64,000 nucleotides of DNA from an uncultured Chromatiales bacterium (GCA_964557295.1 CAZKZP010000004.1:68667-132666); one strand, 5' to 3'; shown: positions 4,365 to 22,878, counted from the stretch's first letter. Numbers and translations are program-made. Notes: a model not told the origin generated them from the letters alone.

Positions 4365-6665
4365 ATGCTCAAGAAAATACCCATACTCATTTTCAGCGCA
4401 ACTCTGTGCGCTTGTGGTGGAGGATCGACAGGAAGTGAAAAAAATTCCGGACAGAATAGCCCCCAAGACAATGAGGAAATCGTCGCAGCCATGCAAGGCA
4501 GCGTCGGCGACGGCCCGATCCAGAACGCCGTCATCGCCATCCGCGACAAGAACGGCGCAGTGGTGCAAGCCCTCATGGGCAGCGGCACGGCCAGCTATGA
4601 AACCACGATCAACGTCAAACGAAGGCTCTATCCCCTGACGATCGAAGTCTCCGGCGGCACCGATCTCGTCACCGATACCGCCCCCGACTTCACCTTGTAT
4701 TCAGTCGCGCTCAAGCCGAGTGCATCGAGCACCTTCAACGTCAATCCGTTCACCACCTTCATCACCCGCATCGCGCAGAACATGCCGGGCGGCATTAACA
4801 CCACCAACGTACAAACCGCCACAGATACCGTATTGGCGAATCTGCACGCGGGACTGGATACCACGCTCATCTCCGACACCATTGGTCAAACTGTCGACGC
4901 CAACACGATCGCGGTGATGGTCAAGGCGAGCGAGTCCGTGGGCGAAATCGTGCGCAGAACGCGCGATGGCATTCGGGCAAAAGGCCTGGACGTCACGGGC
5001 GATGACATCGTCGATGCGCTCTCGGCCGACCTCGTCGATGGCAAGATCGATGGCCGCGGCGCTACCGGTGCCGACAACCGCATCGCCGCCGTCGCCAACC
5101 TGGTCACCGGCCAGGTTCTGCTCGAAGTGGTGCGCAACCGCCTGAACGTCAACGGCGCCGAAGCGACCGTGCGCATGGACAACGCCATTATGGCCACACA
5201 TCCCGGCAGCACTAAACTGACCGGCTCGGTGGCCATTACCGGCGAAATCATTGATCAGTCCAAACGTATCGTCGATGTCGTCAACACCATTACCCCGAGC
5301 ACTACATTGGTCGAGATCTCGAAACAGCTTGCCACACTTGCGCCCAATAGTTCCGCCAGTGACGCAGACCGGACTCTGCCAGACGCTGCCAGCGGCGCGC
5401 TCGACGGCGCCATTCAATATGCCCTGCAAGCCGATGCTACCGATCTGAAGGCGATCAATGATGTCGTGCCAGGGCCGCTCCCGACGCAAACGCCTGCGCC
5501 GACCGCAACACCCACTCCGACCCCGAGGGCCACACCAACGCCTGCGCCGAGCGCGGCACCCACGCCGACACCTGCGCCGATCATCGTGCCGGGACCTGGT
5601 CCGACTCTGACGCCCAAGCCGACAGCGACGCCCTCACCGACACCCAAGCCAACGGCGACACCCTCACCCACGCCCAAGCCGACAGCGACGCCCTCACCCA
5701 CGCCCAAGCCAACGGCGACGCCCTCACCGACGCCCAAGCCAACGGCGACGCCCACGCCTGCACCAGGCCCCACTCAAACGCCGAAGCCATCACCTACGCC
5801 CACTCCGGCGCCTCAGGCGGTAGCCCCGGTGCTCAATTCCGCAACCGTTAAAGGAACGGATATTGTACTGGCCTGGTCCCAGGGCAACCCGACACCCGAT
5901 GGTGGCTATGATCTCTTCATCGACAATACCGACACCGGCAGCAAATATCGCACGACCGCCCTATCGCTCACCCTGAGCGGCTTGGATGTATCGGTAGCGC
6001 ATTGCTTCAAGGTCGAGTCCCGGTATGTCGCGCTGAACCAATTCCTGCCCTCGAACGAGCGCTGCACCACACCGGTGGTCACTCCGCAGAATGCAGCGCC
6101 CACCCTCAGCGGCACCCCCGCTGGCAGTGTCGCGGCGGGATCATACTACCTGTTCACGCCGAAGGCATCCGACGCCAATGGCGACACCCTCACCTTCAGC
6201 GTCAGCAACAAGCCTGCTTGGGCCATGTTCGACACCGCCACCGGCAAATTGTCCGGCATCCCGAATGCAGCCAATGCCGGCACCGCCAGCAACATCGTGA
6301 TCACCGCCTCAGATGGCAAGGCCAGCACATCGCTTCCCGCCTTCGCCATCACGGTGACCACTTCAAGCACCGGCGGTGGCAGTGGCAGCGGCAGCGGCAG
6401 CGGCAGCGCCACACTGTCATGGAGCACTCCTACCACCAAGGAAGATGGCAGCCCGATGCCCATGTACGAAATCGCCGGTTATCGCGTCTATCGCGGGACG
6501 GCTCCGGACAAGATGACCGTCATATCAGACATCAAAAACAACACCACGACATCGTATACCGCCACAGCGCTCACGAGCGGGACTCATTACTTTGCCGTAA
6601 CCACATATGACGTCAACAACATCGAAAGCTCACTCTCAAGCGTCATGAGCAAGACGATTCCGTAG
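4365..6665 (+). CDS. modular surface lipoprotein with Pro/Thr-rich tandem-repeat linker, two FN3-like domains, a putative Ig (cadherin-like) domain and a (GS)n linker
   Basis: 766 aa. The N-terminal [21 protein letters not shown] shows a lipobox. A PT-rich region [10 protein letters not shown] is repeated about five times. A putative Ig-like stretch is TLSGTPAGS...[33 protein letters not shown] is followed by an FN3-like C-terminal domain ([10 protein letters not shown]...YRVYRGT...[10 protein letters not shown]). A strong terminator lies immediately downstream. Confidence 0.8.
5610..5758 (+). repeat. in-frame 30-bp tandem repeat (about 4.8 copies) encoding ([10 protein letters not shown])n
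   Basis: The unit acgcccaagccRacRgcgacRccctcaccS repeats head-to-tail. The antisense ORF 5414..5773 ([10 protein letters not shown] repeats) is its shadow. Confidence 0.85.
6372..6407 (+). repeat. hexanucleotide microsatellite (ggcagY)n encoding the (GS)n linker
   Basis: The sequence is ggcggtggcagtggcagcggcagcggcagcggcagc, in frame inside CDS 4365..6665. Confidence 0.8.
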
Positions 6666-7372: not shown

Positions 7373-7840
7373 ATGAGATCGAGCATCGCAAGCAACATTT
7401 TGAAACTCGTGGCACTGGGAAGCATCACCTTGGCCCTCACTGCCTGCCAGGGTGGACCCTCGGCGAGCAACGAAACCACACCGAATAACACTAACAATGT
7501 GGGCGGCACCGGCAACACTGGTGGTTCTGGATCCGGTTCAGGATCAGGCTCGGGATTGAACATCAGCAAGTCATCGGCGACGCTCAGCTGGTCAGCCCCG
7601 CTGACGGATGAAACTGGCGCCCCCATCAACCTTTATCAACTCGGTGGCTACAAGGTATACCTGGGCAGCAGCGCCGACACCATGACCCCGGTCGTGGATC
7701 TCGCAGACCCTGCCACCACGGAATACACCCTGACCGGCCTGAGCAACGGCACTTATTACATGGCAGTGACCGCCTACGACAACGACCTGATAGAAAGCGC
7801 GCTTTCCACAGTTGTTGAAATCAACGTCAACCATTCTTGA
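7373..7840 (+). CDS. small lipoprotein consisting of lipobox signal peptide, Asn/Thr/(GS)n linker and a single FN3-like domain
   Basis: 155 aa. The signal peptide MRSSIASNILKLVALGSITLALTACQGG carries a lipobox. [11 protein letters not shown] is followed by an FN3-like domain (SATLSWSAPLTDE...YKVYLGS...TYYMAVTAYD) homologous to the C-terminal domain of CDS 4365..6665. Confidence 0.75.
   Translation: MRSSIASNILKLVALGSITLALTACQGGPSASNETTPNNTNNVGGTGNTGGSGSGSGSGSGLNISKSSATLSWSAPLTDETGAPINLYQLGGYKVYLGSSADTMTPVVDLADPATTEYTLTGLSNGTYYMAVTAYDNDLIESALSTVVEINVNHS
7523..7555 (+). repeat. microsatellite encoding the (GS)n linker
   Basis: The sequence is ggttctggatccggttcaggatcaggctcggga, in frame in CDS 7373..7840. 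Confidence 0.7.
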
Positions 7841-7924: not shown

Positions 7925-9622
7925 ATGAATAAACTTACCAGCGCAACCTGGCTTCTGGGCCTGACCATGCTCGGTTCAAGCGCCGCCCATGCGTATACCC
8001 CACCCATCGGCATTCCAGCACCTTCCTTCGGCATCGATGAAACCGCCCCGGCACAGCCTGCGGCCTGGCCCAGCGGCGAAGCTGCCGGATTCTACTATGT
8101 CGACAAATCCCACCCATCAGCCACTGACACTGGCAACTCGTACGGCTATCCCAACAAGCCTCGACTGACTATTCCGAGAACCACATTTGGCCCAGGCGCT
8201 TACATTGAACTGCACGGGGGAGAATATAGTGGAAGCCTAGGCATGCTCACCTTCGATTGCCGCAAGGAAAACCCTTGCTGGCTGAGAGGTGCCAGCGCAA
8301 GTGTAATGCCGACAATTTCCGGGAACTTTACGCTGGATGCCACTTACCTGATTGTAGAGAATCTCGATTTCAATGGAGGCACAGGCGGCAGTATCGATAT
8401 AGTCAGCGATTCGACTTATGTGTCTGTGCGGCACTCAAAATTCCGCAACAGGGCTTTTGTAAGCAACACCGCCGCAATTGGCATCACACCAGCGCTTGGA
8501 AAAAAATCTCACGACATCGTAGCCTATAAAAATGAGTTCAGCGCGCTTGGTGACTATACGGCAACAGTGGATCTCGATTTTCATGCGATCAACCCGACCC
8601 TCTGGGGGCGTGACAGCACTACTGAGTTATTCAATGTGTGGGCACTTGAAAACCATTGTTACCGCCTAAGCGGCGATTGTGTTCAAGTGAATGCTGGTAA
8701 TTGGACCGACTCTTATAAATATCTGCATCATGTCTATATAGGAAAAAATGTAGGCCATGAAGGACGTCAGGGTCCATTTGGCGTCAAACAATCAAGTGAT
8801 GTAATAATTTCTCAAAACACAGCCTATGGATCGCGCCAACACGGCCCACAAGCAGGCAATGGGATTGGGTTTCAATACGGCCCCAATAATTTATGGATTA
8901 TCTTCAACGATATATCCGATTCTAACTATGGCATTCGGCAAACGGATACCTCCACCCCCTTCCCAAACAACAAGATCTATATTGTCGGAAACGTAATTCA
9001 TAACATTCATCCTGAAGCTAGCATCACCTACAACCCCAACGATGCCTGGAGACCTGGGGTCGCCATATCCTTGTGGCATGGCAACCTGCAACGCTTCATC
9101 GTGGACAACACCATTTATGATGTTCATGGCGGCATTACAGCCATCTATGATGGCCCATTGACCATTTCAAACAACATTATTTCTAATATTCACGATCAGG
9201 ACTATCACTTATACATTGCCCATCCAGCTCGACCAAATCCAACTGCAGATGCCTCTATCGACAGCGGCCTGTTCTACGACCCCGAGCTCGGCAACGCCAA
9301 AATTCGCTGGGAAGGTGGAAATGGTGATTTGCATAACACCCTGACGTCCTTTAAAGCTGCGTATGGGTTATGCGCTGACTGTTCAGTAGGCAATCCCGAC
9401 TTTCTAGATCCAGCGAATGGAAAGTTTGATCTGCAAAAAACATCCGCGGCTATTAATAAAGGCAAAGATCAATCAGTCTACGACACATTTTTCAGTCTAT
9501 ATGGCATAAACATCGAAAAGGACTTCCACGGCCAATCTCGCAAGATTGGATTAAAACAGGACTTCGGTGCATTTGAGGTAGGCCTAGCGCCTACTGCACC
9601 AAGTAATTTTACAGTAAAATAA
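7925..9622 (+). CDS. secreted right-handed parallel beta-helix protein (pectate-lyase-fold polysaccharide lyase/hydrolase candidate), paralog 1
   Basis: 565 aa with a Sec signal peptide MNKLTSATWLLGLTMLGSSAAHA. It contains multiple PbH1-like repeats (NLDFNGGTGGSIDI, IISQNTAYG, GNGIGFQYGPNNLWIIFN, IVGNVIHNIH, IVDNTIYDVHGGI, ISNNIISNIHD). It ends with an FN3-like first strand, APTAPSNFTVK. GC is lower than in the locus core. Confidence 0.8.
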   Translation: MNKLTSATWLLGLTMLGSSAAHAYTPPIGIPAPSFGIDETAPAQPAAWPSGEAAGFYYVDKSHPSATDTGNSYGYPNKPRLTIPRTTFGPGAYIELHGGEYSGSLGMLTFDCRKENPCWLRGASASVMPTISGNFTLDATYLIVENLDFNGGTGGSIDIVSDSTYVSVRHSKFRNRAFVSNTAAIGITPALGKKSHDIVAYKNEFSALGDYTATVDLDFHAINPTLWGRDSTTELFNVWALENHCYRLSGDCVQVNAGNWTDSYKYLHHVYIGKNVGHEGRQGPFGVKQSSDVIISQNTAYGSRQHGPQAGNGIGFQYGPNNLWIIFNDISDSNYGIRQTDTSTPFPNNKIYIVGNVIHNIHPEASITYNPNDAWRPGVAISLWHGNLQRFIVDNTIYDVHGGITAIYDGPLTISNNIISNIHDQDYHLYIAHPARPNPTADASIDSGLFYDPELGNAKIRWEGGNGDLHNTLTSFKAAYGLCADCSVGNPDFLDPANGKFDLQKTSAAINKGKDQSVYDTFFSLYGINIEKDFHGQSRKIGLKQDFGAFEVGLAPTAPSNFTVK

Positions 9623-9741
9623 TCTCCGCGTTGGGCAAGGATGCCCTTGCCCAGATCGTCTGCCCCGCGCGCACCCCACACACCAGATACCAGCTCTAAC
9701 TTTCAGAGTATGATTCCCAGTCCCAGCAGAAGATTTCAACA

Positions 9742-11427
9742 ATGACAAAACATAACACAGCAACCTGGCTTCTGGGCCTGACCATGCTCGGTTCAAGCGC
9801 CGCTCATGCGTATACCCCGCCCATCGGCATTCCAGCGCCCGCGTTCGGCATCGATGAAACCGCCCCGGCACAGCCTGCGGCCTGGCCCAGCGGCGAAAAG
9901 GCCGGGTTCTACTACGTCGACAAGTCCCATCCTTCGGCGACAGACACCGGCAACACATACGGCTATCCCAACAAGCCCCGGTTGACAATTCCGAACACCA
10001 CCTTTGGGCCTGGGACTTACGTTGAGCTGCACGGGGGGACGTATTCCTCAAACATGAGCCTGAACTTCAACTGCACTCAGGCAGCCCCCTGCTGGGTCAG
10101 AGGCGCCAGCGCCACAACCATGCCGACAATCACCGCATCGATGAGCATTAATTCCAAATATTTGATTGTGGAGAACCTCGATTTCAACGGCGGGGTTGGT
10201 GGTGCGTTGAACGTGACGGGTACGTCACAATATGTATCCATCAGGCACTCCAAGATCCGCAACAGGGCGCATCCCACTGGTGCTACCGCCGCCATCGGCC
10301 TCATTCCCGCCCCTGGCCAAAAAGTGTCAGATGTCGTGATCCATAAGGTTGAGTTCAGCGATCTCGGCGACTGGTTACGCCTGGACGATCTGGATTTTCA
10401 CGGTGTCAATCCGAGCCTCTGGGGACGTGACAGCACCGCCGAGCTTTCCAATGTGTGGATTCTTGATAGCCAATGCTTCCATGTGAGCGGCAACTGCGTG
10501 CAGGTCAATGCCGGCAACTGGGCCGATAGCTGGAAATATCTCCACCACGTCTATATTGGTCGGAACGTCTCCCATGCCGGCCGACAGGCAGGTTTCTGGT
10601 CCAAGCAGGCACGGGATGTCATCATCTCGCAGAATACCGTCTATGATAACCGAGCGCACGGCCCCCAACCCGGAGACGGCATCGGCTTCCAATATGGTCC
10701 GGACAACCTATGGATCATCTTCAATGAGATTTACAACTGCAATTACGGAATCCGGCAGTCGGATACTGGCACCAGCGCCAGCACTCACAAGGCCTATATT
10801 CTCGGAAATCTGATCTACAACATTCATCCAGAAGATGTCGCCGCCTACAAGCCGAATGACGGATGGCGGCAAGGACTCGGGATCACCTTGTGGCATGGCA
10901 ATATGCAGCGTCACATCGTCGACAACACCATCTATGATGTACATGGTGGCATTAACACGATCTATGACGGCCCAGTGTCCATGTCAGGGAACATCATTAC
11001 AAACATTCACGATGCAGATTATCACATCAGCAGCTCGCACTCCGCGCGCAGCGGAAACGCATCAATCGACAGTGGGCTGTTCTATGACCCGGAACTGGCC
11101 TCAGCCCGTATCAACTGGAACTGGGCAGATTACACCAGCCTGTCAGCCTTCAAAAGTGGTACGGGGAATATACAATGCAGCGGCTGCGAAGTCGGCAATC
11201 CTGCATTCGTCGACCCGACAACCGGAAAGTTTGACCTGCAAAAAACCTCCTCGGCCATTAACAAAGGGAAGCTGCATTCAGCGTATGACACTTTCTTTAC
11301 GCTCTATGGCATAGACATCAAAAAGGACTTCGCAGGCAGGACTCGCGTACTGGGATTGAAGCCGGACTTCGGAGCCTTTGAGGTGGGTGTAGCCCCTACT
11401 GCGCCGAGCAACTTTACAGTCAAATAG
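9742..11427 (+). CDS. secreted right-handed parallel beta-helix protein, paralog 2 (tandem duplicate of 7925..9622)
   Basis: 561 aa, colinear with paralog 1. The first roughly 170 nt are about 90% identical at DNA level and diverge thereafter. It has the same signal peptide, the same PbH1 repeats and the same C-terminal APTAPSNFTVK. Confidence 0.8.
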   Translation: MTKHNTATWLLGLTMLGSSAAHAYTPPIGIPAPAFGIDETAPAQPAAWPSGEKAGFYYVDKSHPSATDTGNTYGYPNKPRLTIPNTTFGPGTYVELHGGTYSSNMSLNFNCTQAAPCWVRGASATTMPTITASMSINSKYLIVENLDFNGGVGGALNVTGTSQYVSIRHSKIRNRAHPTGATAAIGLIPAPGQKVSDVVIHKVEFSDLGDWLRLDDLDFHGVNPSLWGRDSTAELSNVWILDSQCFHVSGNCVQVNAGNWADSWKYLHHVYIGRNVSHAGRQAGFWSKQARDVIISQNTVYDNRAHGPQPGDGIGFQYGPDNLWIIFNEIYNCNYGIRQSDTGTSASTHKAYILGNLIYNIHPEDVAAYKPNDGWRQGLGITLWHGNMQRHIVDNTIYDVHGGINTIYDGPVSMSGNIITNIHDADYHISSSHSARSGNASIDSGLFYDPELASARINWNWADYTSLSAFKSGTGNIQCSGCEVGNPAFVDPTTGKFDLQKTSSAINKGKLHSAYDTFFTLYGIDIKKDFAGRTRVLGLKPDFGAFEVGVAPTAPSNFTVK

Positions 11428-11572
11428 CCCACTCTATTGGACCATGCTCTAAGCCAGATTCATTATCATCTATATCTCCGTATGGGAATCCGGAGGATAA
11501 AGTGTTACCATTTTCCCGCGTGATGCGTGGAATCCCAGCTCGTCACGACCTTGCTCAGTGATCAGAATATAA

Positions 11573-11612
11573 GGCGCCGCATCTAGATGTGGCGCCCCCA
11601 CGAAGGCGGGGG
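11573..11612. repeat. two consecutive GC-rich hairpins (ggcgccgcatctagatgtggcgcc; cccccacgaaggcggggg)
   Basis: Perfect or near-perfect palindromes seen directly in the sequence, in the intergenic region after CDS 9742..11427. They may act as a terminator or RNA-stability element, but there is no T-run. Confidence 0.4.
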
Positions 11613-11650
11613 TCCAGATTTTTCAAACCGCCTGGATCCTGTCTTCGAGG
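11611..11650. repeat. interspersed repeat family 3 copy (ggtccagatttttcaaaccgcctggatcc)
   Basis: It matches the core of the 6935-6985 copy. Together they bracket the 7373-11427 three-gene segment. Confidence 0.45.
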
Positions 11651-11780
11651 GAATTGAGAGGTTCTGGTATGCAACCTGATAGTCTATCTGACCACTGTGC
11701 AAATCTGATTAAAATTTACCAGGTACCTCATGTGAGCATCCAGTGGTGATGGCTATTTTAGGAATTTATGAGAACTCCGC

Positions 11781-13463
11781 ATGGAAAACACCACCTTTAA
11801 AATACTTAGAAAGTCATCCCATTATCTCATATCGGCTGGATTTCTTCTTCTCTACCTAGCCCTGCCTTCGGCCAATCATAGCTACGCAGATGATAGCCTT
11901 CGGTGGGCTTATGGTATCACGCAAGAAGGCGGCATTATCAACTCTCACCATCTGATTATTAACGCCTTAAGAGAAGCATTTATTCTATTTAACAGTCTAT
12001 TTGATAGCGTATCACCATCAAGCTTCTTAACTATCTACTCAAGTCTCTGGGGTGGCACCGGATTGCTCCTTCTAAGCTTCTTACTAAAAGAAGTTGGATT
12101 GCATAACTCCCGTATAGTCGGCGTCACTCTCTGCGGAATATCTGTTGGTTACTGGTCATACTCTATCGTGGGAGATGTTTATGTGCCCGCAACAGCAAGC
12201 TTGGTGGGAGGCACACTATTCTTTCTGAAGGGATTGAAGCGCAACCCTAGTGCAACTAAACAAGCATACGCCCTTCTAAGCGTCTTGTTTTTTCTCACTG
12301 CAATTATGCATCATCAGGCTTTTTTTGTTTTTGTAATAGGACTTGGATTTATCGGGCTTTTATACAGCAACACACTTAGCAAACAAGGCCTGACTTATGG
12401 CCTCATAATATCAGTAGCGGTCGGGCTTGCGTGCATTGCAATTTATGTTTCTGCTCACAAATTCTCTACCCCTCCGCATGAGGAGTCTCCCTCCACGCTC
12501 CAATTCATGTCCGGCTACGCCTCGAGCTTTACAGCTTACCCAGACATGAAAGACTTATCGCCAGCAACACTTATCAAAGGCGCTGGCGGATTTGCTCGCT
12601 CGCTTGTAAGCACAAACATCTTATTCAGCAATCATTCCTTTGTGGAGAACATTCAAAACAAATTCCCCTATCGTCACATGCTAAGCCAAGTCTATTTAGC
12701 AGAGCAAATGACGTCTTTGCAAATTACAGTCGCCTGGATAGGCCTGTTTATAACCGTATTGATTGCAGCACCGCTCACCATATTCGCACTCTGGTGCTGC
12801 GCAAAAAACCCATCTGCTGCAAAAAAAGTGCTTATATTTTCCGTTGTACCTCAGATGTTATTTTTTTTGTGGTGGGAATCAATATCTGACGAATTTTGGA
12901 TTTGGATACTTCCCTTCTGGGCAATGACAATTTGTTTCGCCGTTGAACGGCTCAAGAAGAACGGCACCCTTATTGCTATTGTATTTTCGGCAGCACTTTT
13001 AGCGGCCAATCTTTGCGCCTCGATACTACCTTACAGCAACTCCAGCTCAGATATTGACCAACGCAACAGCGAATACATCAATACCGTTAAACCTGGCGAT
13101 CTGCTGATATCATTTGATGAAATAATTACAGCACACTTGATAAAACTCTCAGAAAGCAAAATTGGCTTCGAATATATCAATCTATTTGGACCGGCAGAAA
13201 AAGGGCGTGACTTAGAAATAGACAAAATAATCATGCGCGCGGAAGCAGCCATACGGCGCGGTAACTCAATCCATCTTGGCCCCTACTTGATAGATCCCCC
13301 ACGATCATATATGGCACTAGTAGAGCTGCAAACGAAAGACTTCTCCCAACAAAGAGATTTATTGATACAGAAACTTATGCTGCTGAGTCGGGACAGCTTA
13401 AAATTTCACCACCCAAATATAACAATAGATGGGGCATTCTCGAATAGATTGGCGCCCGAGTGA
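11781..13463 (+). CDS. polytopic integral membrane protein of unknown function (possible GT-C-type glycosyltransferase or polymerase accessory protein)
   Basis: 560 aa with about 12-13 hydrophobic segments and a roughly 140-aa hydrophilic C-terminal domain. It is AT-rich (low-GC island). Its stop overlaps the GTG start of the next gene (GTGA). Confidence 0.65.
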   Translation: MENTTFKILRKSSHYLISAGFLLLYLALPSANHSYADDSLRWAYGITQEGGIINSHHLIINALREAFILFNSLFDSVSPSSFLTIYSSLWGGTGLLLLSFLLKEVGLHNSRIVGVTLCGISVGYWSYSIVGDVYVPATASLVGGTLFFLKGLKRNPSATKQAYALLSVLFFLTAIMHHQAFFVFVIGLGFIGLLYSNTLSKQGLTYGLIISVAVGLACIAIYVSAHKFSTPPHEESPSTLQFMSGYASSFTAYPDMKDLSPATLIKGAGGFARSLVSTNILFSNHSFVENIQNKFPYRHMLSQVYLAEQMTSLQITVAWIGLFITVLIAAPLTIFALWCCAKNPSAAKKVLIFSVVPQMLFFLWWESISDEFWIWILPFWAMTICFAVERLKKNGTLIAIVFSAALLAANLCASILPYSNSSSDIDQRNSEYINTVKPGDLLISFDEIITAHLIKLSESKIGFEYINLFGPAEKGRDLEIDKIIMRAEAAIRRGNSIHLGPYLIDPPRSYMALVELQTKDFSQQRDLLIQKLMLLSRDSLKFHHPNITIDGAFSNRLAPE

Positions 13464-14950
13464 AAATCGCTGCTTTAACTTTTTTTATAACACTTTTCTC
13501 TCTTTATGCCTGGAAAGATTGGTATAAATCGCTTTGCGCACTAATCTTTCTTATGGCTTTTCTCGAGCGCCCGGACATTCCAAAGACCATTCTTGATATT
13601 CCGGGCTTTAATCCCTGGAATTTCCTTCTTGCAGTCGTCTTACTGGCATGGCTAGCATCGAAACGGCGAGAAGAGCTGAAATGGGATATGCCTCCCAAAA
13701 TCACATTTCTACTACTTTTTTATTTTTTTGCTATCACTGTTGCAGTTGCCCGCATGCTTAGCGACATTAGCGGCATTACCGAATTTCGATTGGCCGCAGG
13801 ACAGGAAGCTCCAACAAAGTCGGGCTTGATAATTGATTATTATGTCAATTGCATTAAATATACAATTCCAGGGTTATTGCTTTTTATCGGCTGCAACAGT
13901 CGCAGCCGACTAAACTGGGCGCTGGCCGCACTGGCGGGCATGTATTTATTTCTTGCACTCCAAGTCATCAAATGGATGCCCTTAGGGTTGCTCACCGATG
14001 GGGTGGAATTGAGCTATCGGGCATTACGTGTGCTAGACAGAGAAATAGGCTATCACCGTGTCGATTTGTCAATGATCCTTGGAGGGGGGGCTTGCGCCAT
14101 TTTTGCCGCCAGAATATTCGCAAAAAACCAAATTCAATACTTCATCATAATATCTGTTAGCGCTATTACAGCACTCAGCCAGGTGCTTACGGGCGGCCGA
14201 ATGGGTTATGTCACTACTGCGATTATTGGATTAATATTCGCTGCCTTTCGTTGGCGAAAGCTGTTTCTGTTACTACCAATTATGGTCGTCCTGATAACGA
14301 TCTATATGCCCTCGGTTGTAGACCGCTTTACACAAGGTTTCGGAGGCGAATTTGCCACTGAGGAAGCACCACCAACTGTCGTTGCTGAAACGCTCAACGA
14401 GGGCGATGCGGGGCTGTATGCCATGACATCAGGACGCAACTTTGCGTGGCCATTTGTACTAGATAAGATAGCAGAAGCGCCACTTTTCGGTTACGGTTGC
14501 TTAGCGATGCAGAACCTCGGCATTAGCACACACCTATTGCTCAATTATGGCGAGCTTTTTCCGCACCCCCACAACGCTTATCTAGAGCTGATATTTGATA
14601 CGGGATTGTTTGGAGCAATCCCCGTTTTTATCTTATTTGCGCTACTGACAAAATTCAGTTTTTCACTCTTCCGCGACTCAAGCAGCACTATATTCATCGC
14701 CGTAGGCGGTGGAGGACTCGCAATCATCTTGGCCCAACTTATCGCCAGCCTTGGCGCGCAATCTTTCTATCCGCGCGAAGGCACTGTTGCCCTTTGGTGT
14801 GCAATCGGACTGGTGCTGCGCGTTTACATTGAGAGAGCAAAAGCCATCACCATGCGACCCAGCAACTCCGCGCCCATCGATGATCTAATGTGGGGACGTA
14901 AGTTAGCTGAAAAAAATACGTCTATGCGGTTTAACAAACGGTCGCAATAG
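13460..14950 (+). CDS. O-antigen ligase/Wzy-like polysaccharide polymerase family membrane protein
   Basis: 496 aa and multi-TM. It carries a Wzy_C-type motif, YGCLAMQNLGISTHLLLNYGELFPHPHNAYLELIFDTGLFG. The GTG start is overlapped by the upstream stop. It lies in the low-GC region. Confidence 0.75.
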   Translation: MKIAALTFFITLFSLYAWKDWYKSLCALIFLMAFLERPDIPKTILDIPGFNPWNFLLAVVLLAWLASKRREELKWDMPPKITFLLLFYFFAITVAVARMLSDISGITEFRLAAGQEAPTKSGLIIDYYVNCIKYTIPGLLLFIGCNSRSRLNWALAALAGMYLFLALQVIKWMPLGLLTDGVELSYRALRVLDREIGYHRVDLSMILGGGACAIFAARIFAKNQIQYFIIISVSAITALSQVLTGGRMGYVTTAIIGLIFAAFRWRKLFLLLPIMVVLITIYMPSVVDRFTQGFGGEFATEEAPPTVVAETLNEGDAGLYAMTSGRNFAWPFVLDKIAEAPLFGYGCLAMQNLGISTHLLLNYGELFPHPHNAYLELIFDTGLFGAIPVFILFALLTKFSFSLFRDSSSTIFIAVGGGGLAIILAQLIASLGAQSFYPREGTVALWCAIGLVLRVYIERAKAITMRPSNSAPIDDLMWGRKLAEKNTSMRFNKRSQ

Positions 14951-15067
14951 AGAGAATATACGCGTCTCACAACATCAGTGCGGCTGGCCTTACATCACCC
15001 AATCAATTTTTTCCGAGTTTTCCAACCCCCACATGACTGATGAGTTGCGTTAATCTGAAATATCACT

Positions 15068-16207
15068 TTAGTTACTTACGCAGAGTTCGCCAAATGTTTT
15101 TTCGAATTTTGGCATGGCAACGTCTAACGAATGGTTCCTCTGAAAATATTCGATGCAATTATGCGACACTGACTCATGCTTTTTGGGCGAAGATAAAATG
15201 CCGGTTATCCATTCAATTACTTCATCTGGGGTTCGTGCAAAACCGCCCAAGCCATTTTTCTCGATCACAGAATCAGGGTCCACCGTTGACACCACGGGCA
15301 GTCCGACGCTCCATGCTTCCAAAAACACGTTTGGAAACCCTTCAAAGGTGGAGGTGCAACAAAGCACGGCCGCTCTCCGGTAGAATTTTGCTAAATTACC
15401 GTGGTCAATCCGTCCATGTATGACGACATTGTCCATCTCACGTGCGCGGCTGAGCAGTCCGCTTGAATATTTAGTGTCCATGTTCGCCGCGCCAACAATA
15501 TCAAATTTTACGTGCTTGAGCTTTTCTGCAACATCCAGCATCCATTCAAGCCTTTTCTCAGCGCTCAATCTTCCCACCCACAGCACATGGTGCTGCTCTG
15601 CCATTTCATTATTCGTCAGCGTTGCACCTCCAATTCCCGCCGACGGCATGCTGATAACTGTCGAATGTTTGCCGAAATTTCTATTCAACAACTGCTGTTG
15701 CTTGTTAGTTTGCACAATCACCACATCGGTTCTTTTGAGGCCATAGCGATATAGCACCCGCTCGCGCAGCGGACGAAGGCTTGGCAGGGACGATTCGCAA
15801 TCTGGATCACTGGCAACAGAGTACACAACTTTTTTTCCATGTCGATGCGCCCAATTGACAACCTGCCCCAAACCCATGTCTCCGCAGTTATAATAATAGA
15901 TGTCAGCATCGGCCTTTTTCATGGCTTTTATCAAACTTGTCCAGCGCGGATATATAAATCGAACCACTGGAATGCCGTCATCGCGATCACACATTTTGTA
16001 CACGCGAACGCCATCCACCAGCTCACCATCTGGCTGCCCTTCATCCCATGTGATCATGCTTACCTTGTACCCGTGACTGGCGAGCCACTTAGCCATGAGG
16101 GACTGCTGTCGCTCAATCCCGCCCGCATGCCTTTTGTTATTTCCAACCAATGCGCCATACGCATGGTGCGCAACAAAGCATATTGATGGCTTGCTCAATC
16201 CACACAC
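15068..16207 (-). CDS. glycosyltransferase family 4 (GT-B, retaining)
   Basis: 379 aa with the GT4 signature EGFPNVFLEAWSVGLPVVST. Confidence 0.85.
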   Translation of the reverse strand: MCGLSKPSICFVAHHAYGALVGNNKRHAGGIERQQSLMAKWLASHGYKVSMITWDEGQPDGELVDGVRVYKMCDRDDGIPVVRFIYPRWTSLIKAMKKADADIYYYNCGDMGLGQVVNWAHRHGKKVVYSVASDPDCESSLPSLRPLRERVLYRYGLKRTDVVIVQTNKQQQLLNRNFGKHSTVISMPSAGIGGATLTNNEMAEQHHVLWVGRLSAEKRLEWMLDVAEKLKHVKFDIVGAANMDTKYSSGLLSRAREMDNVVIHGRIDHGNLAKFYRRAAVLCCTSTFEGFPNVFLEAWSVGLPVVSTVDPDSVIEKNGLGGFARTPDEVIEWITGILSSPKKHESVSHNCIEYFQRNHSLDVAMPKFEKTFGELCVSN

Positions 16208-21297: not shown

Positions 21298-22878
21298 TCA
21301 ATCATTCTCGGCAATTCCAAGGCCGAGCCGCTTCGCGAGCGATGTGTTGCGCAAATCATAACGCACTTGTGCGGGCACAAGATATCGCCAATACAAAACC
21401 GCCAATACAAAACCGCCAACCACGCATCCCAGCGCCAGCCCCGCGAGGAGATTGTCCGCGAACAGTACACGGCACCCGGCCAACACCATCAAGAATATCC
21501 CATTGAGCGCCAACGGCCGCAAGAATACCTGACGCACATATGTCCATAATGGAATATCGAGCTTGCGGCAAGCATAGACCGGCAGCAAAATCCCGTTGCT
21601 CAGCGTGAGCGGTATGGTGACCAATAACGCCGCGCTGATTAGGCTCCACCCCAATTGTTCAATCAGCAGCGCCGCGGAGGCAAAGGTCACTAGACTGAGC
21701 AGCAACGAGATCAGCGCGACTTTGCCGTGATGCCCCATCCCCATCAAGATTTTGTATACGGTGCCCTGTGAAACCGGTAAGAAATAGCCGATGGCCAATA
21801 TCGTCATCAGCAACCAGTCTGCATATTCCTGCCCCATCCATACATCGAGCACCACGTCGCCGAAACACACCAGCAGCAGAACAAATGGCAGCGTAAAGGC
21901 AACGCCGTATCGCGCGCTCTTGATCATGAACTCGCGCACTTCACCCGGCACACCGTTTTGATGCAATACGCCAGCGGTTGGTGTCAGAATCATCGAGAAC
22001 CTGCTGAGAAAACCCTCCATGTGGCGAACAAGGGCGATCGGCCGTGAAAACACCGCCAGCGCCGCCGGCCCGAGCTTGGCCACCAGCAATATATTGGTTG
22101 TTTGCACCAGCATCAGGGCGGGCAGTGAAAAAATCATGGCCTTGCCGCCAAATTGAAATGCCTCGACCCCATGCGAGCGACTGACATGCCGGTAGCTCAC
22201 CGTAAGCTCCGGGCATATCCTCCGGACGACAAAAACGCGCGCCACCTCGGTGATGATGGTCACTGACAAATACGCCACCCCTAAGCTGATCAACCCGCCG
22301 CCAAAGGTCAAGGCCGCTATCATGGCGATAACGGCCACAAACCGTCCCGCCGCATTCAGCCCACTATTCAAGTCCCAGCGATGACAGCCAGTGAGCACGC
22401 CGCGGGCCCAATTGAACGCCATTTCAGCCGCCAATGCGGCCCCCAACAGCGATACCACCCAGCCAGCAGTGTTTAACTGGTCTCCCAGCTGTTCTGAGAA
22501 AAACTTTGGGAGTGACCATACGACACCGGCGGTAGCCAGCAGCACAATGAGTGCGATGAAGATCTGTATGAAGACTGTCGAGGATACGATCTTGGACAGC
22601 TCTTCGATTTGGTTGGAAGCGCGATACACCGCCACATACCGGTTGATCGCCGTGCCGATACCCAGGTTGGACAGGCTGATATAGTTGATGAATGACCAGG
22701 AAAAATCCCAGATCCCCAGCGACACCTGTCCCACGTGCTCATCGATCATCCTTGGAATGATGAAGCCCGCGACAAAGAATACCAGGTAACTGCCCCAGCT
22801 CGTGATGACATTCCAGGCGAATCTATCGCGCCCGGTCATGTCCTCCGCTTGTGGCTGTGGCGTGCTTTTATCTGTCAT
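21298..22878 (-). CDS. polysaccharide biosynthesis protein / Wzx-type oligosaccharide flippase (MOP superfamily)
   Basis: 526 aa with about 12-14 TM segments, a hydrophilic N-terminal tail and the expected position in the EPS operon. The C-terminal few codons may run into REP copy B. Confidence 0.7.
   Translation of the reverse strand: MTDKSTPQPQAEDMTGRDRFAWNVITSWGSYLVFFVAGFIIPRMIDEHVGQVSLGIWDFSWSFINYISLSNLGIGTAINRYVAVYRASNQIEELSKIVSSTVFIQIFIALIVLLATAGVVWSLPKFFSEQLGDQLNTAGWVVSLLGAALAAEMAFNWARGVLTGCHRWDLNSGLNAAGRFVAVIAMIAALTFGGGLISLGVAYLSVTIITEVARVFVVRRICPELTVSYRHVSRSHGVEAFQFGGKAMIFSLPALMLVQTTNILLVAKLGPAALAVFSRPIALVRHMEGFLSRFSMILTPTAGVLHQNGVPGEVREFMIKSARYGVAFTLPFVLLLVCFGDVVLDVWMGQEYADWLLMTILAIGYFLPVSQGTVYKILMGMGHHGKVALISLLLSLVTFASAALLIEQLGWSLISAALLVTIPLTLSNGILLPVYACRKLDIPLWTYVRQVFLRPLALNGIFLMVLAGCRVLFADNLLAGLALGCVVGGFVLAVLYWRYLVPAQVRYDLRNTSLAKRLGLGIAEND

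What the first reader, a model, noticed from the sequence alone, without database searches (positions are those of the whole stretch)
7925..11427. Tandem paralogous beta-helix enzymes with a homogenised 5' end and a vestigial FN3 first strand at the C-terminus
The two genes are colinear over their full length. The first ~170 nt (signal peptide plus ~35 mature residues) are ~90% identical at DNA level. The rest has diverged much further, which implies recent gene conversion or a recombination-permissive 5' cassette on otherwise old paralogs. Both proteins end with GL/VAPTAPSNFTVK. This looks like the first beta-strand of an FN3 domain of the type present in full in the neighbouring lipoproteins, so an FN3 domain may have been lost, or may be supplied in trans by the small FN3 lipoprotein 7373..7840. 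The PbH1 repeats indicate a polysaccharide lyase/hydrolase or epimerase of the pectate-lyase superfamily, probably acting on the locus EPS.
Basis: seen in the sequence. Interest (0 to 1): 0.6.

Follow-up and report, generated by a model that had tools for sequence, protein, structure and literature searches.

The report
Enzymes carrying an orphan FN3 strand
Two neighbouring copies of a secreted sugar-polymer enzyme have had their front ends copied onto each other, and both end in a short conserved tail that matches the one strand missing from a small protein domain on membrane-anchored proteins encoded next door, so the tail may be how the enzymes are tethered to the cell surface.

Summary
Genes A (7925..9622) and B (9742..11427) are colinear paralogs, 68% identical in protein. 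A 150-nt tract (gene nt 19-168) differs at 10 sites. Both proteins end in APTAPSNFTVK.

The 5' identity is gene conversion. A related MAG has a single-copy ortholog C of B. B and C are sisters over the gene (88% aa), yet inside the tract A=B≠C at 24 sites against 5 and 2. This is ordinary for tandem paralogs.

The tail is FN3 strand-A-like but not vestigial:
- A and B differ in 6 of its 11 codons, all synonymously.
- The same kind of tail ends most short-tailed members of a family of at least 1,564 clusters.
- It is disordered in the AlphaFold model of A.

The neighbouring lipoprotein FN3 domains lack strand A: Pfam fn3 starts at profile position 10-11. Grafting the tail onto one raises the fn3 score from 29.0 to 40.8 bits; 11 shuffled tails give 28.9-32.7. 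An AlphaFold fusion model places the tail as strand A.

Strand-A-less FN3 proteins lie within 10 kb of 9 of 21 tail-bearing loci and 1 of 21 without.

Best reading, unproven (about 0.4): a naturally split FN3 domain that docks the enzymes to lipoproteins. No experiment or multimer control was possible. The enzymes are right-handed beta-helix proteins with no close characterised relative.

The parts
7925..9622 (+). Gene A: secreted right-handed beta-helix enzyme, 565 aa. Sec signal peptide at aa 1-23 (7925..7993).
   Evidence: ORF. Pfam Beta_helix 25.4 bits against a cut-off of 25.9. AlphaFold2 model with pLDDT 94.2 and pTM 0.93 is a beta-helix. Foldseek hits are GH136, PL6, PL9 and chondroitinase B at 10-16% identity.
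9742..11427 (+). Gene B: paralog of A, 561 aa. It is the ortholog of the single-copy gene C in MAG GCA_040752855.1.
   Evidence: ORF. Pfam Beta_helix 29.4 bits. B-C identity is 88% aa and 79% nt; A-C is 67% aa.
7943..8092 (+). Gene-conversion tract in A (gene nt 19-168). It covers most of the signal peptide and the first 33 mature residues.
   Evidence: 10 A/B differences in 150 nt, against 29 (A/C) and 32 (B/C). Informative sites: A=B≠C 24, A=C≠B 5, B=C≠A 2.
9760..9909 (+). Gene-conversion tract in B, the partner of 7943..8092.
9587..9619 (+). Tail of A, APTAPSNFTVK: an orphan FN3 strand-A-like tag, followed by the stop codon at 9620..9622.
   Evidence: Translation. pLDDT 56-66 and no secondary structure in the monomer model. 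fn3 chimera test: 40.8 bits against 29.0 native and 28.9-32.7 for shuffles. A strand with block pLDDT 89 in the fusion model.
11392..11424 (+). Tail of B, APTAPSNFTVK. The peptide is identical to A's tail, but 6 of the 11 codons differ, all synonymously.
9425..9580 (+). Choice-of-anchor-Q-like segment of A (aa 501-552), ending in the DFGAFE motif just before the tail.
   Evidence: NCBIfam NF041518, 23.2 bits against a cut-off of 25.
11221..11385 (+). Choice-of-anchor-Q-like segment of B (aa 494-548).
   Evidence: NCBIfam NF041518, 22.9 bits against a cut-off of 25.
7373..7840 (+). Small lipoprotein of 155 aa: lipobox LTAC (Cys25), a 37-aa Gly/Ser/Thr/Asn linker, then an FN3 domain that lacks strand A (core at 7559..7837). 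Proposed acceptor for the tails.
   Evidence: Pfam fn3 27.9 bits, matching profile positions 10-71 only. Sequence. Relatives begin at strand B directly after the signal peptide or linker.
4365..6665 (+). Lipoprotein of 766 aa: Pro/Thr-rich repeats, an internal FN3-like domain with its own strand A, a He_PIG domain, a GSGSGS linker, then a C-terminal FN3 that lacks strand A (6405..6662). Possible second acceptor.
   Evidence: Pfam He_PIG 38.1 bits; fn3 23.7 bits from profile position 11. Adding the tail raises fn3 to 28.1 bits, matching from profile position 2.
9633..9652 (+). Inverted repeat GGGCAAGG-ATGC-CCTTGCCC in the A-B spacer, with no T run after it.
   Evidence: Sequence. Not reported as a terminator. 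Role unknown.

Best explanation
Shown:
- A and B are tandem paralogs. They encode Sec-exported right-handed parallel beta-helix proteins inside an XrtA/PEP-CTERM-type exopolysaccharide locus.
- B is the resident gene, with a single-copy ortholog in a related MAG. A is an older or imported paralog.
- After the two lineages split, a tract of about 150 nt at the 5' end was homogenised between A and B by gene conversion. It covers the signal peptide and the invariant N-terminal segment. This is the stretch where the proteins were already most alike.
- The last 11 residues, APTAPSNFTVK, are not a decaying remnant. They are a conserved, flexible C-terminal tag with the sequence pattern of FN3 strand A: Pro-x-x-Pro, alternating hydrophobic residues, then a polar last residue.
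- The FN3 domains of the co-encoded lipoproteins begin at strand B and lack that strand.

Inferred mechanism: the tail inserts as the missing edge strand into a strand-A-less FN3 domain. This would be beta-strand complementation, in effect an FN3 domain nicked in its A-B loop. It would tether the enzymes to the lipid-anchored proteins near the polysaccharide export machinery, where they would trim or modify the polymer.

The catalytic chemistry (lyase or hydrolase) and the substrate are inferred from fold and context only.
For: Context:
- PrsT 593 bits, and the XrtA export protein, chain-length determinant, tyrosine kinase and TIGR03016 outer membrane protein, all score above their NCBIfam cut-offs. 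Glycosyltransferases, a sulfotransferase, a heparinase II/III-like protein and Wzy_C are also present.

Gene conversion:
- B-C 88% aa against A-C 67% over the whole gene. In codons 1-60, A-B nt identity is 0.90-0.93 against 0.74-0.81 for B-C.
- Site counts in the tract are 24/5/2 (A=B≠C, A=C≠B, B=C≠A). Third-position identity among codons with the same amino acid is 43/48 (A-B) against 25/41 (B-C), Fisher p=0.002.

The tail is conserved and functional:
- 6 synonymous and 0 non-synonymous differences in 11 codons.
- 75 of 109 homologs have a short tail. The C-terminus-anchored profile is K/N/R at -1, V/I at -2, L at -4, and P at -7, -9 and -10. A strict motif is found in 18 of 75, against a mean of 2.2 and a maximum of 8 in shuffles.
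- The tails recur among 126 further representatives of 50%-identity clusters. The family has 1,564 clusters at E<=1e-30.

The tail is free:
- pLDDT 56-66 and coil in a monomer model with overall pLDDT 94.

The tail resembles FN3 strand A:
- The chimera scores 40.8 bits and matches from profile position 2. The native domain scores 29.0 bits and matches from position 10. Eleven shuffled tails score 28.9-32.7 bits (z about 8.7).
- Tails of five distant homologs score 38.2, 39.3, 37.8, 33.6 and 31.5 bits.
- FN3-bearing homologs have strand A at the same place.

The acceptors lack strand A:
- Pfam fn3 starts at profile position 10-11 in the two window lipoproteins and at 6-16 in ten relatives.
- Mature N-termini such as ADVTLSW, AEAQLSW and GTATLSW begin at strand B.

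Fusion model (tail, the lipoprotein's own linker, then its FN3):
- The tail is a strand at residues 13-19 with block pLDDT 89. The linker is below 50 and the FN3 above 90.
- Foldseek alignments that span tail and domain (139-146 columns) reach TM 0.74-0.80 on complete single-domain FN3 structures. Alignments of 92-107 columns, which leave the tail out, reach 0.53-0.68.

Co-location:
- Strand-A-less FN3 proteins lie within 10 kb of 9 of 21 tail-bearing loci and 1 of 21 others, Fisher p=0.009. The one exception is a tail the regex missed.
- The arrangements differ: adjacent, divergent, downstream, or 3-9 kb away.

Independent case:
- In a Parcubacteria MAG (L027), three different secreted proteins end in ...PP(A/S)APTGL(A/V)V(N/L).
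- They sit beside a strand-A-less FN3 protein that also carries a dockerin, and beside cohesin proteins.

Fusion (Rosetta-stone) hints:
- Some homologs are fused to a full FN3, or to a He_PIG domain plus a GlyGly-CTERM-like anchor.
Against: - No physical evidence of binding.
- The AlphaFold model is a single-chain fusion. The tail was present in only 2 near-identical rows of the alignment, and no scrambled-tail control could be run. AlphaFold is likely to complete a familiar fold with any plausible strand.
- 12 of 21 tail-bearing loci have no strand-A-less FN3 within 10 kb.
- Four strand-A-less FN3 proteins looked up from the other direction have no tail-bearing neighbour. One of them lies in a Mu-like prophage. 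The FN3 class is therefore broader than the enzyme family and may be stable without a strand A.
- Co-location could reflect shared function in surface-polymer loci without direct contact, and the loci are not phylogenetically independent.
- One tail subtype (APVLNTPVVN) scores no better than shuffles in the fn3 test.
- Enzyme activity is untested.
Confidence: 0.45

Rival explanations
1. The tail is a cis-acting or neutral leftover. It would be a Pro-rich linker plus the first strand of an ancestral FN3, kept because it caps or spaces the end of the beta-helix or simply costs nothing. On this reading the neighbouring FN3 lipoproteins are unrelated surface proteins that are stable without a strand A.
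For: Some homologs do carry full FN3 domains at this position, so domain loss is a possible origin. The strand-A-less FN3 class is widespread and often stands alone. About half of the tail-bearing loci lack such a neighbour.
Against: The tail shows 6 synonymous and 0 non-synonymous changes between paralogs that differ at 32% of residues. The same end point, hydrophobic alternation and polar last residue are kept across a family of more than 1,500 clusters. The tail makes no contact with the beta-helix in a high-confidence model. It appears on unrelated proteins in L027. It is associated with strand-A-less FN3 neighbours.
Confidence: 0.2
2. The tail is a C-terminal recognition signal for a secretion, sorting or processing machine, such as a type II secretion determinant or an undescribed sortase-like system. 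Its resemblance to FN3 strand A would then be incidental.
For: It sits directly after a choice-of-anchor-Q-like segment. From my own knowledge of NCBIfam, not checked here, that domain usually precedes C-terminal sorting signals. Other family members carry GlyGly-CTERM-like, dockerin or T9SS-like C-termini at this place.
Against: The tail has no hydrophobic helix or basic cluster like known sorting signals. The same tail occurs in diderm Proteobacteria and in a Parcubacteria MAG, so it is unlikely to be specific to the outer membrane. No candidate processing enzyme was noticed in the loci, although none was searched for systematically. The order-specific fit to the fn3 profile and the matching gap in the neighbours' FN3 would be coincidences.
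Confidence: 0.15
3. The tail docks by strand addition, but to a different partner: another beta-sandwich, a component of the export machinery, or a second enzyme molecule. The lipoprotein FN3 domains would not be its target.
For: Half of the tail-bearing loci lack a strand-A-less FN3 nearby. L053 has three tandem tail-bearing paralogs and no FN3. L005 has Calx-beta neighbours instead.
Against: The tail ends at fn3 profile position 9 and the lipoprotein FN3 starts at position 10. The fusion model places the tail as strand A. Co-location is enriched. Partners may simply be encoded elsewhere in the genome.
Confidence: 0.15
4. The 5' identity reflects selection on the nucleotide sequence, for example an mRNA structure or a translation-initiation region, and not gene conversion.
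For: The tract covers the start of the coding region, where constraints at the mRNA level are known to act.
Against: The ortholog C does not share the sequence: B/C differ at 32 of 150 sites there, against 10 for A/B. 24 sites show A=B≠C. The first 18 nt and the upstream DNA, where initiation signals lie, are not similar.
Confidence: 0.03

Closest known systems
Donor-strand complementation in chaperone-usher pili and type V pili
   Same: An Ig-like beta-sandwich lacks one edge strand, and a short extension of another polypeptide supplies it. Here the sandwich is an FN3 domain without strand A, and the candidate donor is a flexible C-terminal tail.
   Different: In pili the missing strand is the C-terminal G strand, the donor is an N-terminal extension, and a chaperone and usher drive polymerisation into a fibre. 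Here the missing strand is the N-terminal A strand. The donor is the C-terminus of an enzyme. No chaperone or usher is present among the genes examined. The expected product is a 1:1 tethered enzyme, not a polymer. Binding is unproven.
Cohesin-dockerin tethering of secreted glycan-active enzymes (cellulosome-type)
   Same: A short C-terminal module on several different enzymes would attach them to a scaffold or anchor protein. In L027 the proposed acceptor FN3 sits on a protein that also has a dockerin, next to cohesin proteins. Some homologs of A carry a dockerin in place of the tail.
   Different: Dockerin is an autonomous Ca-binding fold of about 60 aa that binds the surface of an intact cohesin. 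The tail is 11-15 aa and would complete a partner's fold.
Right-handed parallel beta-helix glycan lyases and hydrolases (PL6, PL9, chondroitinase B, GH136, RbmB, VexL)
   Same: Same fold. Foldseek probability is 1.00 and TM up to 0.55. Like RbmB and VexL, the genes sit inside a polysaccharide biosynthesis and export locus.
   Different: Only 10-16% identity. There is no significant sequence match to any solved enzyme, apart from a partial hit (E=4e-4) to an unnamed 'parallel beta-helix repeat protein', 9rx2. No CAZy family assignment could be tested, and catalytic residues were not identified.
Choice-of-anchor Q domain proteins (NCBIfam NF041518)
   Same: The Y-G-[IL]-D-I ... R ... D-[FI]-G-A-[FY]-E segment at the C-terminal end of the beta-helix matches the model at 23 bits. 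A more distant homolog is named this way by NCBI.
   Different: The score is just below the curated cut-off of 25 bits. A short FN3-strand tail follows the segment, not a recognised sorting signal.
Gene conversion between tandem paralogs
   Same: A short internal tract with near-identity at synonymous sites, flanked by old divergence, and a tree that conflicts with the rest of the gene.
   Different: Nothing unusual. The tract coincides with the most conserved protein segment, where homology for recombination was highest.

Membership tests
Right-handed parallel beta-helix (pectate-lyase-like) superfamily | Right-handed parallel beta-helix fold | tested here: met
   AlphaFold2 model of A has pLDDT 94.2 and pTM 0.93, with repeated short strands throughout. 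The top Foldseek PDB matches are all beta-helix enzymes with probability 1.00.
Right-handed parallel beta-helix (pectate-lyase-like) superfamily | Pfam PF13229 Beta_helix at or above the gathering score (25.9 bits) | tested here: inconclusive
   B scores 29.4 bits and passes. A scores 25.4 bits, just below the cut-off.
Characterised CAZy families PL6, PL9 and GH136 | Significant sequence similarity to family members, and conserved catalytic residues | tested here: not met
   A profile of 92 homologs searched against all PDB sequences finds only 9rx2 (E=4e-4, partial) and none of the PL6, PL9 or GH136 entries. Structural matches have 10-16% identity. Catalytic residues were not mapped, and dbCAN was not available.
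Choice-of-anchor Q domain (NF041518) | Score at or above the curated cut-off of 25 bits | tested here: not met
   23.2 bits (A) and 22.9 bits (B), covering profile positions 14/17-57 of 58. This is a near miss.
FN3 domain (PF00041), for the tail | The tail matches the N-terminal strand (profile positions 1-9) in an order-specific way | tested here: met
   The tail plus the lipoprotein core scores 40.8 bits and matches from profile position 2. The native domain scores 29.0 bits and matches from position 10. Eleven shuffles score 28.9-32.7 bits.
FN3 domain (PF00041), for the tail | The rest of the FN3 domain is present in the same polypeptide or as a downstream remnant | tested here: not met
   The protein stops after strand A. 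There is no FN3-like sequence in any frame downstream of either stop.
Strand-complementation (donor-strand) systems | The acceptor domain lacks one strand of its fold | tested here: met
   The fn3 match starts at profile position 10-11 in the window lipoproteins and at 6-16 in ten relatives. Mature N-termini begin at strand B. This is sequence-level evidence only.
Strand-complementation (donor-strand) systems | The donor strand occupies the vacant position in a complex | tested here: inconclusive
   The single-chain fusion model places the tail as a strand with pLDDT 89. Alignments to complete FN3 structures improve when the tail is included. No control and no multimer model could be run.
Strand-complementation (donor-strand) systems | Physical binding of donor and acceptor | not testable with these tools
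   Needs pull-down, ITC or a structure.
Gene conversion | A tract with raised identity at synonymous sites, bounded by background divergence | tested here: met
   Third-position identity is 43/48 in codons 7-56 and 22/39 in codons 57-100. See also the sliding windows.
Gene conversion | Phylogenetic incongruence against an outgroup or ortholog | tested here: met
   B groups with C over the gene (88% aa). Inside the tract A=B≠C at 24 sites, against 5 (A=C≠B) and 2 (B=C≠A).
XrtA/PEP-CTERM exopolysaccharide locus (context) | PrsT, XrtA-type export protein, chain-length determinant and tyrosine kinase above NCBIfam cut-offs | tested here: met
   TIGR02917 593 bits (cut-off 312), TIGR03027 229 (180), TIGR03007 547 (279), TIGR03018 260 (231), TIGR03016 162 (91). 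An exosortase gene itself was not identified among the ORFs I scanned.

The most novel reading that the evidence does not exclude
FN3 domains are naturally split in many bacteria. On this reading a class of signal-peptide or lipoprotein-anchored FN3 domains is made without strand A. Diverse secreted enzymes carry the missing strand as an 11-15-residue C-terminal tag. Docking by strand complementation assembles enzyme-anchor complexes on the cell surface. This would be a small, widespread counterpart to cohesin-dockerin, found from Proteobacteria to Parcubacteria.
Probability: 0.35. Interest if true: 0.8.

Novelty: new variant of a known kind. Interest (0 to 1): 0.6.

Why it matters
The gene conversion is routine and explains the 5' identity fully.

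The tail is the part worth following. If it is a docking tag that completes a strand-deficient FN3 domain, four things follow:
- It would be a new natural way of attaching secreted enzymes to the cell envelope.
- It would give a function to the many small 'FN3 domain-containing' lipoproteins found in surface-polysaccharide loci.
- It would explain why the choice-of-anchor-Q position in this family carries either a sorting signal, a whole domain, or only one strand.
- It would offer a compact natural tag-and-catcher pair for protein engineering.

It is directly testable with two small recombinant proteins.

Tried and rejected
- Frameshifted FN3 remnant downstream of either stop: none in any of the three forward frames.
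- A third copy of the 5' cassette in the window: none.
- The tail as part of the beta-helix fold: rejected. It is low-confidence coil in a model with pLDDT 94.
- Close characterised enzyme relatives: none by PDB sequence profile or by Foldseek.
- Literature: searches for 'choice-of-anchor', for 'strand complementation' with FN3 and lipoprotein, for 'donor strand' with FN3 and beta-helix, and for exosortase with beta-helix found nothing describing this tail or a split FN3.
- Reverse neighbourhood test from four strand-A-less FN3 proteins: no tail-bearing neighbours.
The model was therefore built with the tail present in only two near-identical rows.
- Direction of the conversion could not be resolved. 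A-C and B-C distances inside the tract are equal, at 29 and 32 of 150.
- One look-up returned no DNA (P0060).
- Promoter and terminator scans were at chance level, apart from hairpins after the 766-aa gene and after B.

Full report
**1. Observation**

The window holds two same-strand ORFs: A at 7925..9622 (565 aa) and B at 9742..11427 (561 aa).
- They align over their full length with four small indels, at 68% aa and 70% nt identity.
- In 90-nt sliding windows, nt identity is 0.90-0.93 for nt 1-180 and 0.51-0.79 afterwards.
- Third-codon-position identity is 0.80-0.87 in the first three windows and mostly 0.3-0.6 elsewhere.
- The near-identical tract begins at codon 7. The first six codons and the upstream DNA are unrelated.
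- The tract spans gene nt 19-168 (7943..8092 and 9760..9909), with 10 differences in 150 nt.
- Its longest perfect run (44 nt) occurs only at these two places in the window.
- Both proteins end in G(L/V)APTAPSNFTVK.

**2. The 5' identity is gene conversion**

A related metagenome-assembled genome (MAG GCA_040752855.1, contig JBFMHP010000038.1, locus L001) has a syntenic locus. It runs FN3 lipoprotein, then one beta-helix gene C, then Wzy_C.
- Over the whole gene, B and C are sisters (88% aa, 79% nt) and A is the outgroup (67% aa).
- In codons 1-60, A-B nt identity is 0.90-0.93 while B-C is 0.74-0.81.
- Inside nt 19-168 the differences are A/B 10, A/C 29 and B/C 32.
- Informative sites there are A=B≠C 24, A=C≠B 5 and B=C≠A 2.
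- In the next 132 nt the three patterns are equal, at 11, 9 and 9.
- Among codons with the same amino acid, third positions agree in 43/48 (A-B) against 25/41 (B-C), Fisher p=0.002.

Selection on the mRNA would be shared by C, and it is not. So the tract was homogenised between A and B after the B/C split.

Protein identity stays at 93% to about nt 270 while synonymous identity falls to 0.5. The family alignment shows that this N-terminal segment is nearly invariant: P26, P27, G29, I30, P31, P33 and G36. The conversion therefore sits where pre-existing similarity was highest. That is the usual behaviour of recombination between diverged paralogs (my inference). Its direction could not be resolved. 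This part of the finding is real but ordinary.

**3. What the proteins are**

- Pfam gives only Beta_helix, at 25.4 bits for A and 29.4 for B against a cut-off of 25.9.
- NCBIfam gives a near-miss to the choice-of-anchor Q domain, at 23 bits against a cut-off of 25. The match lies at the C-terminal end of the fold, just before the tail.
- An AlphaFold2 model of A built on 92 homologs is confident (pLDDT 94.2, pTM 0.93). It shows a right-handed beta-helix preceded by a signal-peptide helix.
- The Foldseek matches in the PDB are GH136 lacto-N-biosidases, PL6 lyases, PL9 pectate lyase, chondroitinase B, RbmB and VexL. All are at 10-16% identity.
- A family profile finds no characterised enzyme among PDB sequences.
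- The family is large and almost wholly uncultured. There are 282 hits at E<=1e-5 in the word-indexed search and 1,564 50%-identity clusters at E<=1e-30. All 27 genome loci come from MAGs.
- The window locus is an XrtA/PEP-CTERM exopolysaccharide system. It also has GT4 transferases, a sulfotransferase, an amidotransferase, a heparinase II/III-like protein, WecG and Wzy_C.
- Homologs recur in similar polysaccharide loci.

A role in trimming or modifying the locus polymer is a reasonable inference. Neither the chemistry nor the substrate was tested.

**4. The tail is FN3 strand-A-like, conserved and free**

*Not a private remnant.*
- No FN3 sequence follows either stop in any frame.
- Between A and B, which differ at 32% of residues, the 11 tail codons show 6 synonymous and 0 non-synonymous differences.
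- Among 109 homologs with a recognisable end of fold, 75 have a short tail of 8-40 aa, 13 have none, and 21 have a longer extension.
- Anchored at the C-terminus, the short tails share a polar or charged last residue. They also share V/I at -2, L at -4, and Pro at -7, -9 and -10.
- A strict motif is present in 18 of 75, against a mean of 2.2 and a maximum of 8 in 1,000 shuffles.
- The same tails recur among 126 further cluster representatives, for example ...APPAPSNFRFR...SSPSNLSVY and ...PSAPSGLSVN.

*FN3-like.*
- Homologs that carry a complete FN3 have its strand A at the same distance after the GA.E motif.
The native lipoprotein FN3 scores 29.0 bits on Pfam fn3 and matches profile positions 10-71.
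- With A's tail grafted in front it scores 40.8 bits and matches from position 2.
- Eleven shuffled tails give 28.9-32.7 bits (mean 30.6, sd 1.2).
- Natural tails from five distant homologs give 38.2, 39.3, 37.8, 33.6 and 31.5 bits.

*Free.*
- In the monomer model, residues 551-565 have pLDDT 56-66 and no secondary structure.

**5. The neighbours' FN3 domains lack that strand**

- The 155-aa lipoprotein (7373..7840) has a lipobox LTAC, a 37-residue Gly/Ser/Thr/Asn linker, then ...GSGSGSGL-NISKSSATLSWSAP. The fn3 match starts at profile position 10.
- The 766-aa lipoprotein (4365..6665) ends in He_PIG, then GSGSGSGS, then ATLSWSTP. Its fn3 match starts at position 11.
- Alignment to titin FN3 domains fixes the register. 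NISKSS corresponds to the A-B turn.
- This holds for the whole class. In ten relatives the fn3 match starts at profile positions 6-16.
- Many mature proteins begin at strand B directly after the signal peptide, for example ADVTLSW, AEAQLSW, ANADLTW and GTATLSW.

So the tail ends at fn3 position 9 and the acceptor begins at position 10. Together they read as one FN3 domain nicked in the A-B loop.

**6. Tests of the docking idea**

*(a) Fusion model.* I modelled a single chain made of the tail, the lipoprotein's own linker and its FN3.
- The tail forms a strand (residues 13-19, block pLDDT 89). The linker is below 50 and the domain above 90.
- Foldseek alignments to complete single-domain FN3 structures that span the tail and the domain (139-146 columns) reach TM 0.74-0.80.
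- Alignments of 92-107 columns, which leave the tail out, reach 0.53-0.68.
- So the model has the tail in the strand-A position.
- Caveats: no control could be run, the tail was in only two alignment rows, and AlphaFold tends to complete familiar folds.

*(b) Co-location.* I counted over all loci fetched through the enzyme that had at least 5 kb of flank.
- A strand-A-less FN3 protein lies within 10 kb at 9 of 21 tail-bearing loci and at 1 of 21 others, Fisher p=0.009.
- The one exception, L013, has the tail PPPPAPSASVVK, which my regex missed.
- L002 was also scored as having no tail (PNPPSNIQYQIN). The duplicate contig L039 shows an FN3 lipoprotein 9 kb from the same gene.
- Arrangements differ. 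The FN3 gene is adjacent upstream in the window, L001 and L010, and divergent in L004.
- In L084 it starts 24 nt downstream. In L007, L009, L013, L027, L039 and L079 it is 3-9 kb away.
- Acceptor architectures also differ. They include a small lipoprotein with a Gly/Ser linker, a He_PIG-FN3 lipoprotein, and an FN3-dockerin protein.
- The loci are not phylogenetically independent, and co-location does not prove contact.

*(c) An independent case.* This is a Parcubacteria MAG (L027).
- The beta-helix homolog and two unrelated secreted proteins (355 and 375 aa, no Pfam match) all end in ...PP(A/S)APTGL(A/V)V(N/L).
- The locus also encodes a protein whose FN3 starts at fn3 position 15 straight after the signal peptide and which ends in a dockerin.
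- Two cohesin proteins are also present, one with a peptidoglycan-binding domain.
- A tag shared by unrelated enzymes beside an adaptor is what a docking system predicts. It also argues against an outer-membrane-specific signal.

*(d) Fusion hints.* Other homologs are covalently joined to a full FN3, or to a He_PIG domain plus a GlyGly-CTERM-like anchor.

*Against the idea.*
- 12 of 21 tail-bearing loci show no acceptor nearby.
- Four strand-A-less FN3 proteins examined from the other side have no tail-bearing neighbours. One is in a Mu-like prophage.
- The APVLNTPVVN tail subtype is not fn3-like by the profile test.

**7. Verdict**

- *Settled:* tandem paralogs, a 150-nt conversion tract, a beta-helix fold, an XrtA-type EPS context, a conserved and selected strand-A-like tail, and FN3 neighbours that lack strand A in sequence.
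- *Inferred (about 0.4):* the tail docks into those FN3 domains by strand complementation and tethers the enzymes to lipid-anchored proteins.
- *Rivals:* a cis-acting or neutral remnant (0.2), a sorting or secretion signal (0.15), docking to another partner (0.15).
- I found no description of such a split FN3 in the searchable literature.

Its passing suggestion that the rest of the FN3 is supplied in trans is the best current explanation.

Noticed in passing
window 8000..16000: G+C falls to 0.44-0.51 here, against 0.55-0.64 on both sides. The stretch covers A, B, a 560-aa membrane protein with no family match (11781..13463) and Wzy_C (13460..14950). This looks like a variable or imported block inside the EPS locus.
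   Followed up: no
L019:1948-3597, L020:9974-11614, L023:10001-11638 and L023:11475-13265: Homologs from Lysobacterales MAG, an unclassified gammaproteobacterial MAG and Sedimenticola MAG end in a different conserved tail...IFKDGFE...IFHDGFE...LFQNGFE and ...LFADGFEQ. This may be the first strand of another domain type, suggesting that single-strand tails are a wider habit of this family.
   Followed up: no
L027:8393-18114 (Parcubacteria MAG JACPHC010000003.1): A small cohesin-dockerin set sits here: a 210-aa cohesin protein, a 524-aa cohesin-like/FN3/PG_binding_1 protein, and a 257-aa strand-A-less FN3 plus dockerin protein. Next to them are three secreted proteins that share the tail ...APTGL(A/V)V(N/L).
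   Followed up: partly
L036:6851-7198 (protein P0125): A 115-aa secreted strand-A-less FN3 protein lies inside a Mu-like prophage (Mu transposase C, GemA and Gam neighbours). It ends in ...SPSPPPGCAVK, a strand-A-like tail of its own. This raises the possibility of self-complementation or head-to-tail assembly.
   Followed up: no
L053:13-10253: Three beta-helix paralogs lie on one contig, two of them adjacent. Each ends in a strand-A-like tail: APNSPTGLSVL, PSSPEGLSIL and PSYPTNLSVL. No FN3 acceptor lies within the 11.8 kb held.
   Followed up: no
window 21298..22878 (- strand): A 526-aa ORF in the middle of the XrtA-type locus has no Pfam or NCBIfam match. No exosortase gene was recognised among the ORFs I scanned.
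   Followed up: no
window 4365..6665: The 766-aa lipoprotein contains a run of near-perfect [10 protein letters not shown] repeats and several GSGSGS linkers. The related MAG has two paralogs of it in tandem (723 and 665 aa as called), where the window has one.
   Followed up: no
window 9633..9652: A perfect 8-bp inverted repeat, GGGCAAGG-ATGC-CCTTGCCC, lies in the 119-nt spacer between A and B, with no T run after it. No terminator-like site lies between the lipoprotein gene, A and B, so the three may be co-transcribed.
   Followed up: no
P0023, P0025, P0027, P0029, P0033; L042-L044: A subgroup of homologs (710-778 aa) replaces the tail with a He_PIG domain and a C-terminal GGG-hydrophobic-basic segment that resembles a GlyGly-CTERM/rhombosortase signal.
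   Followed up: no
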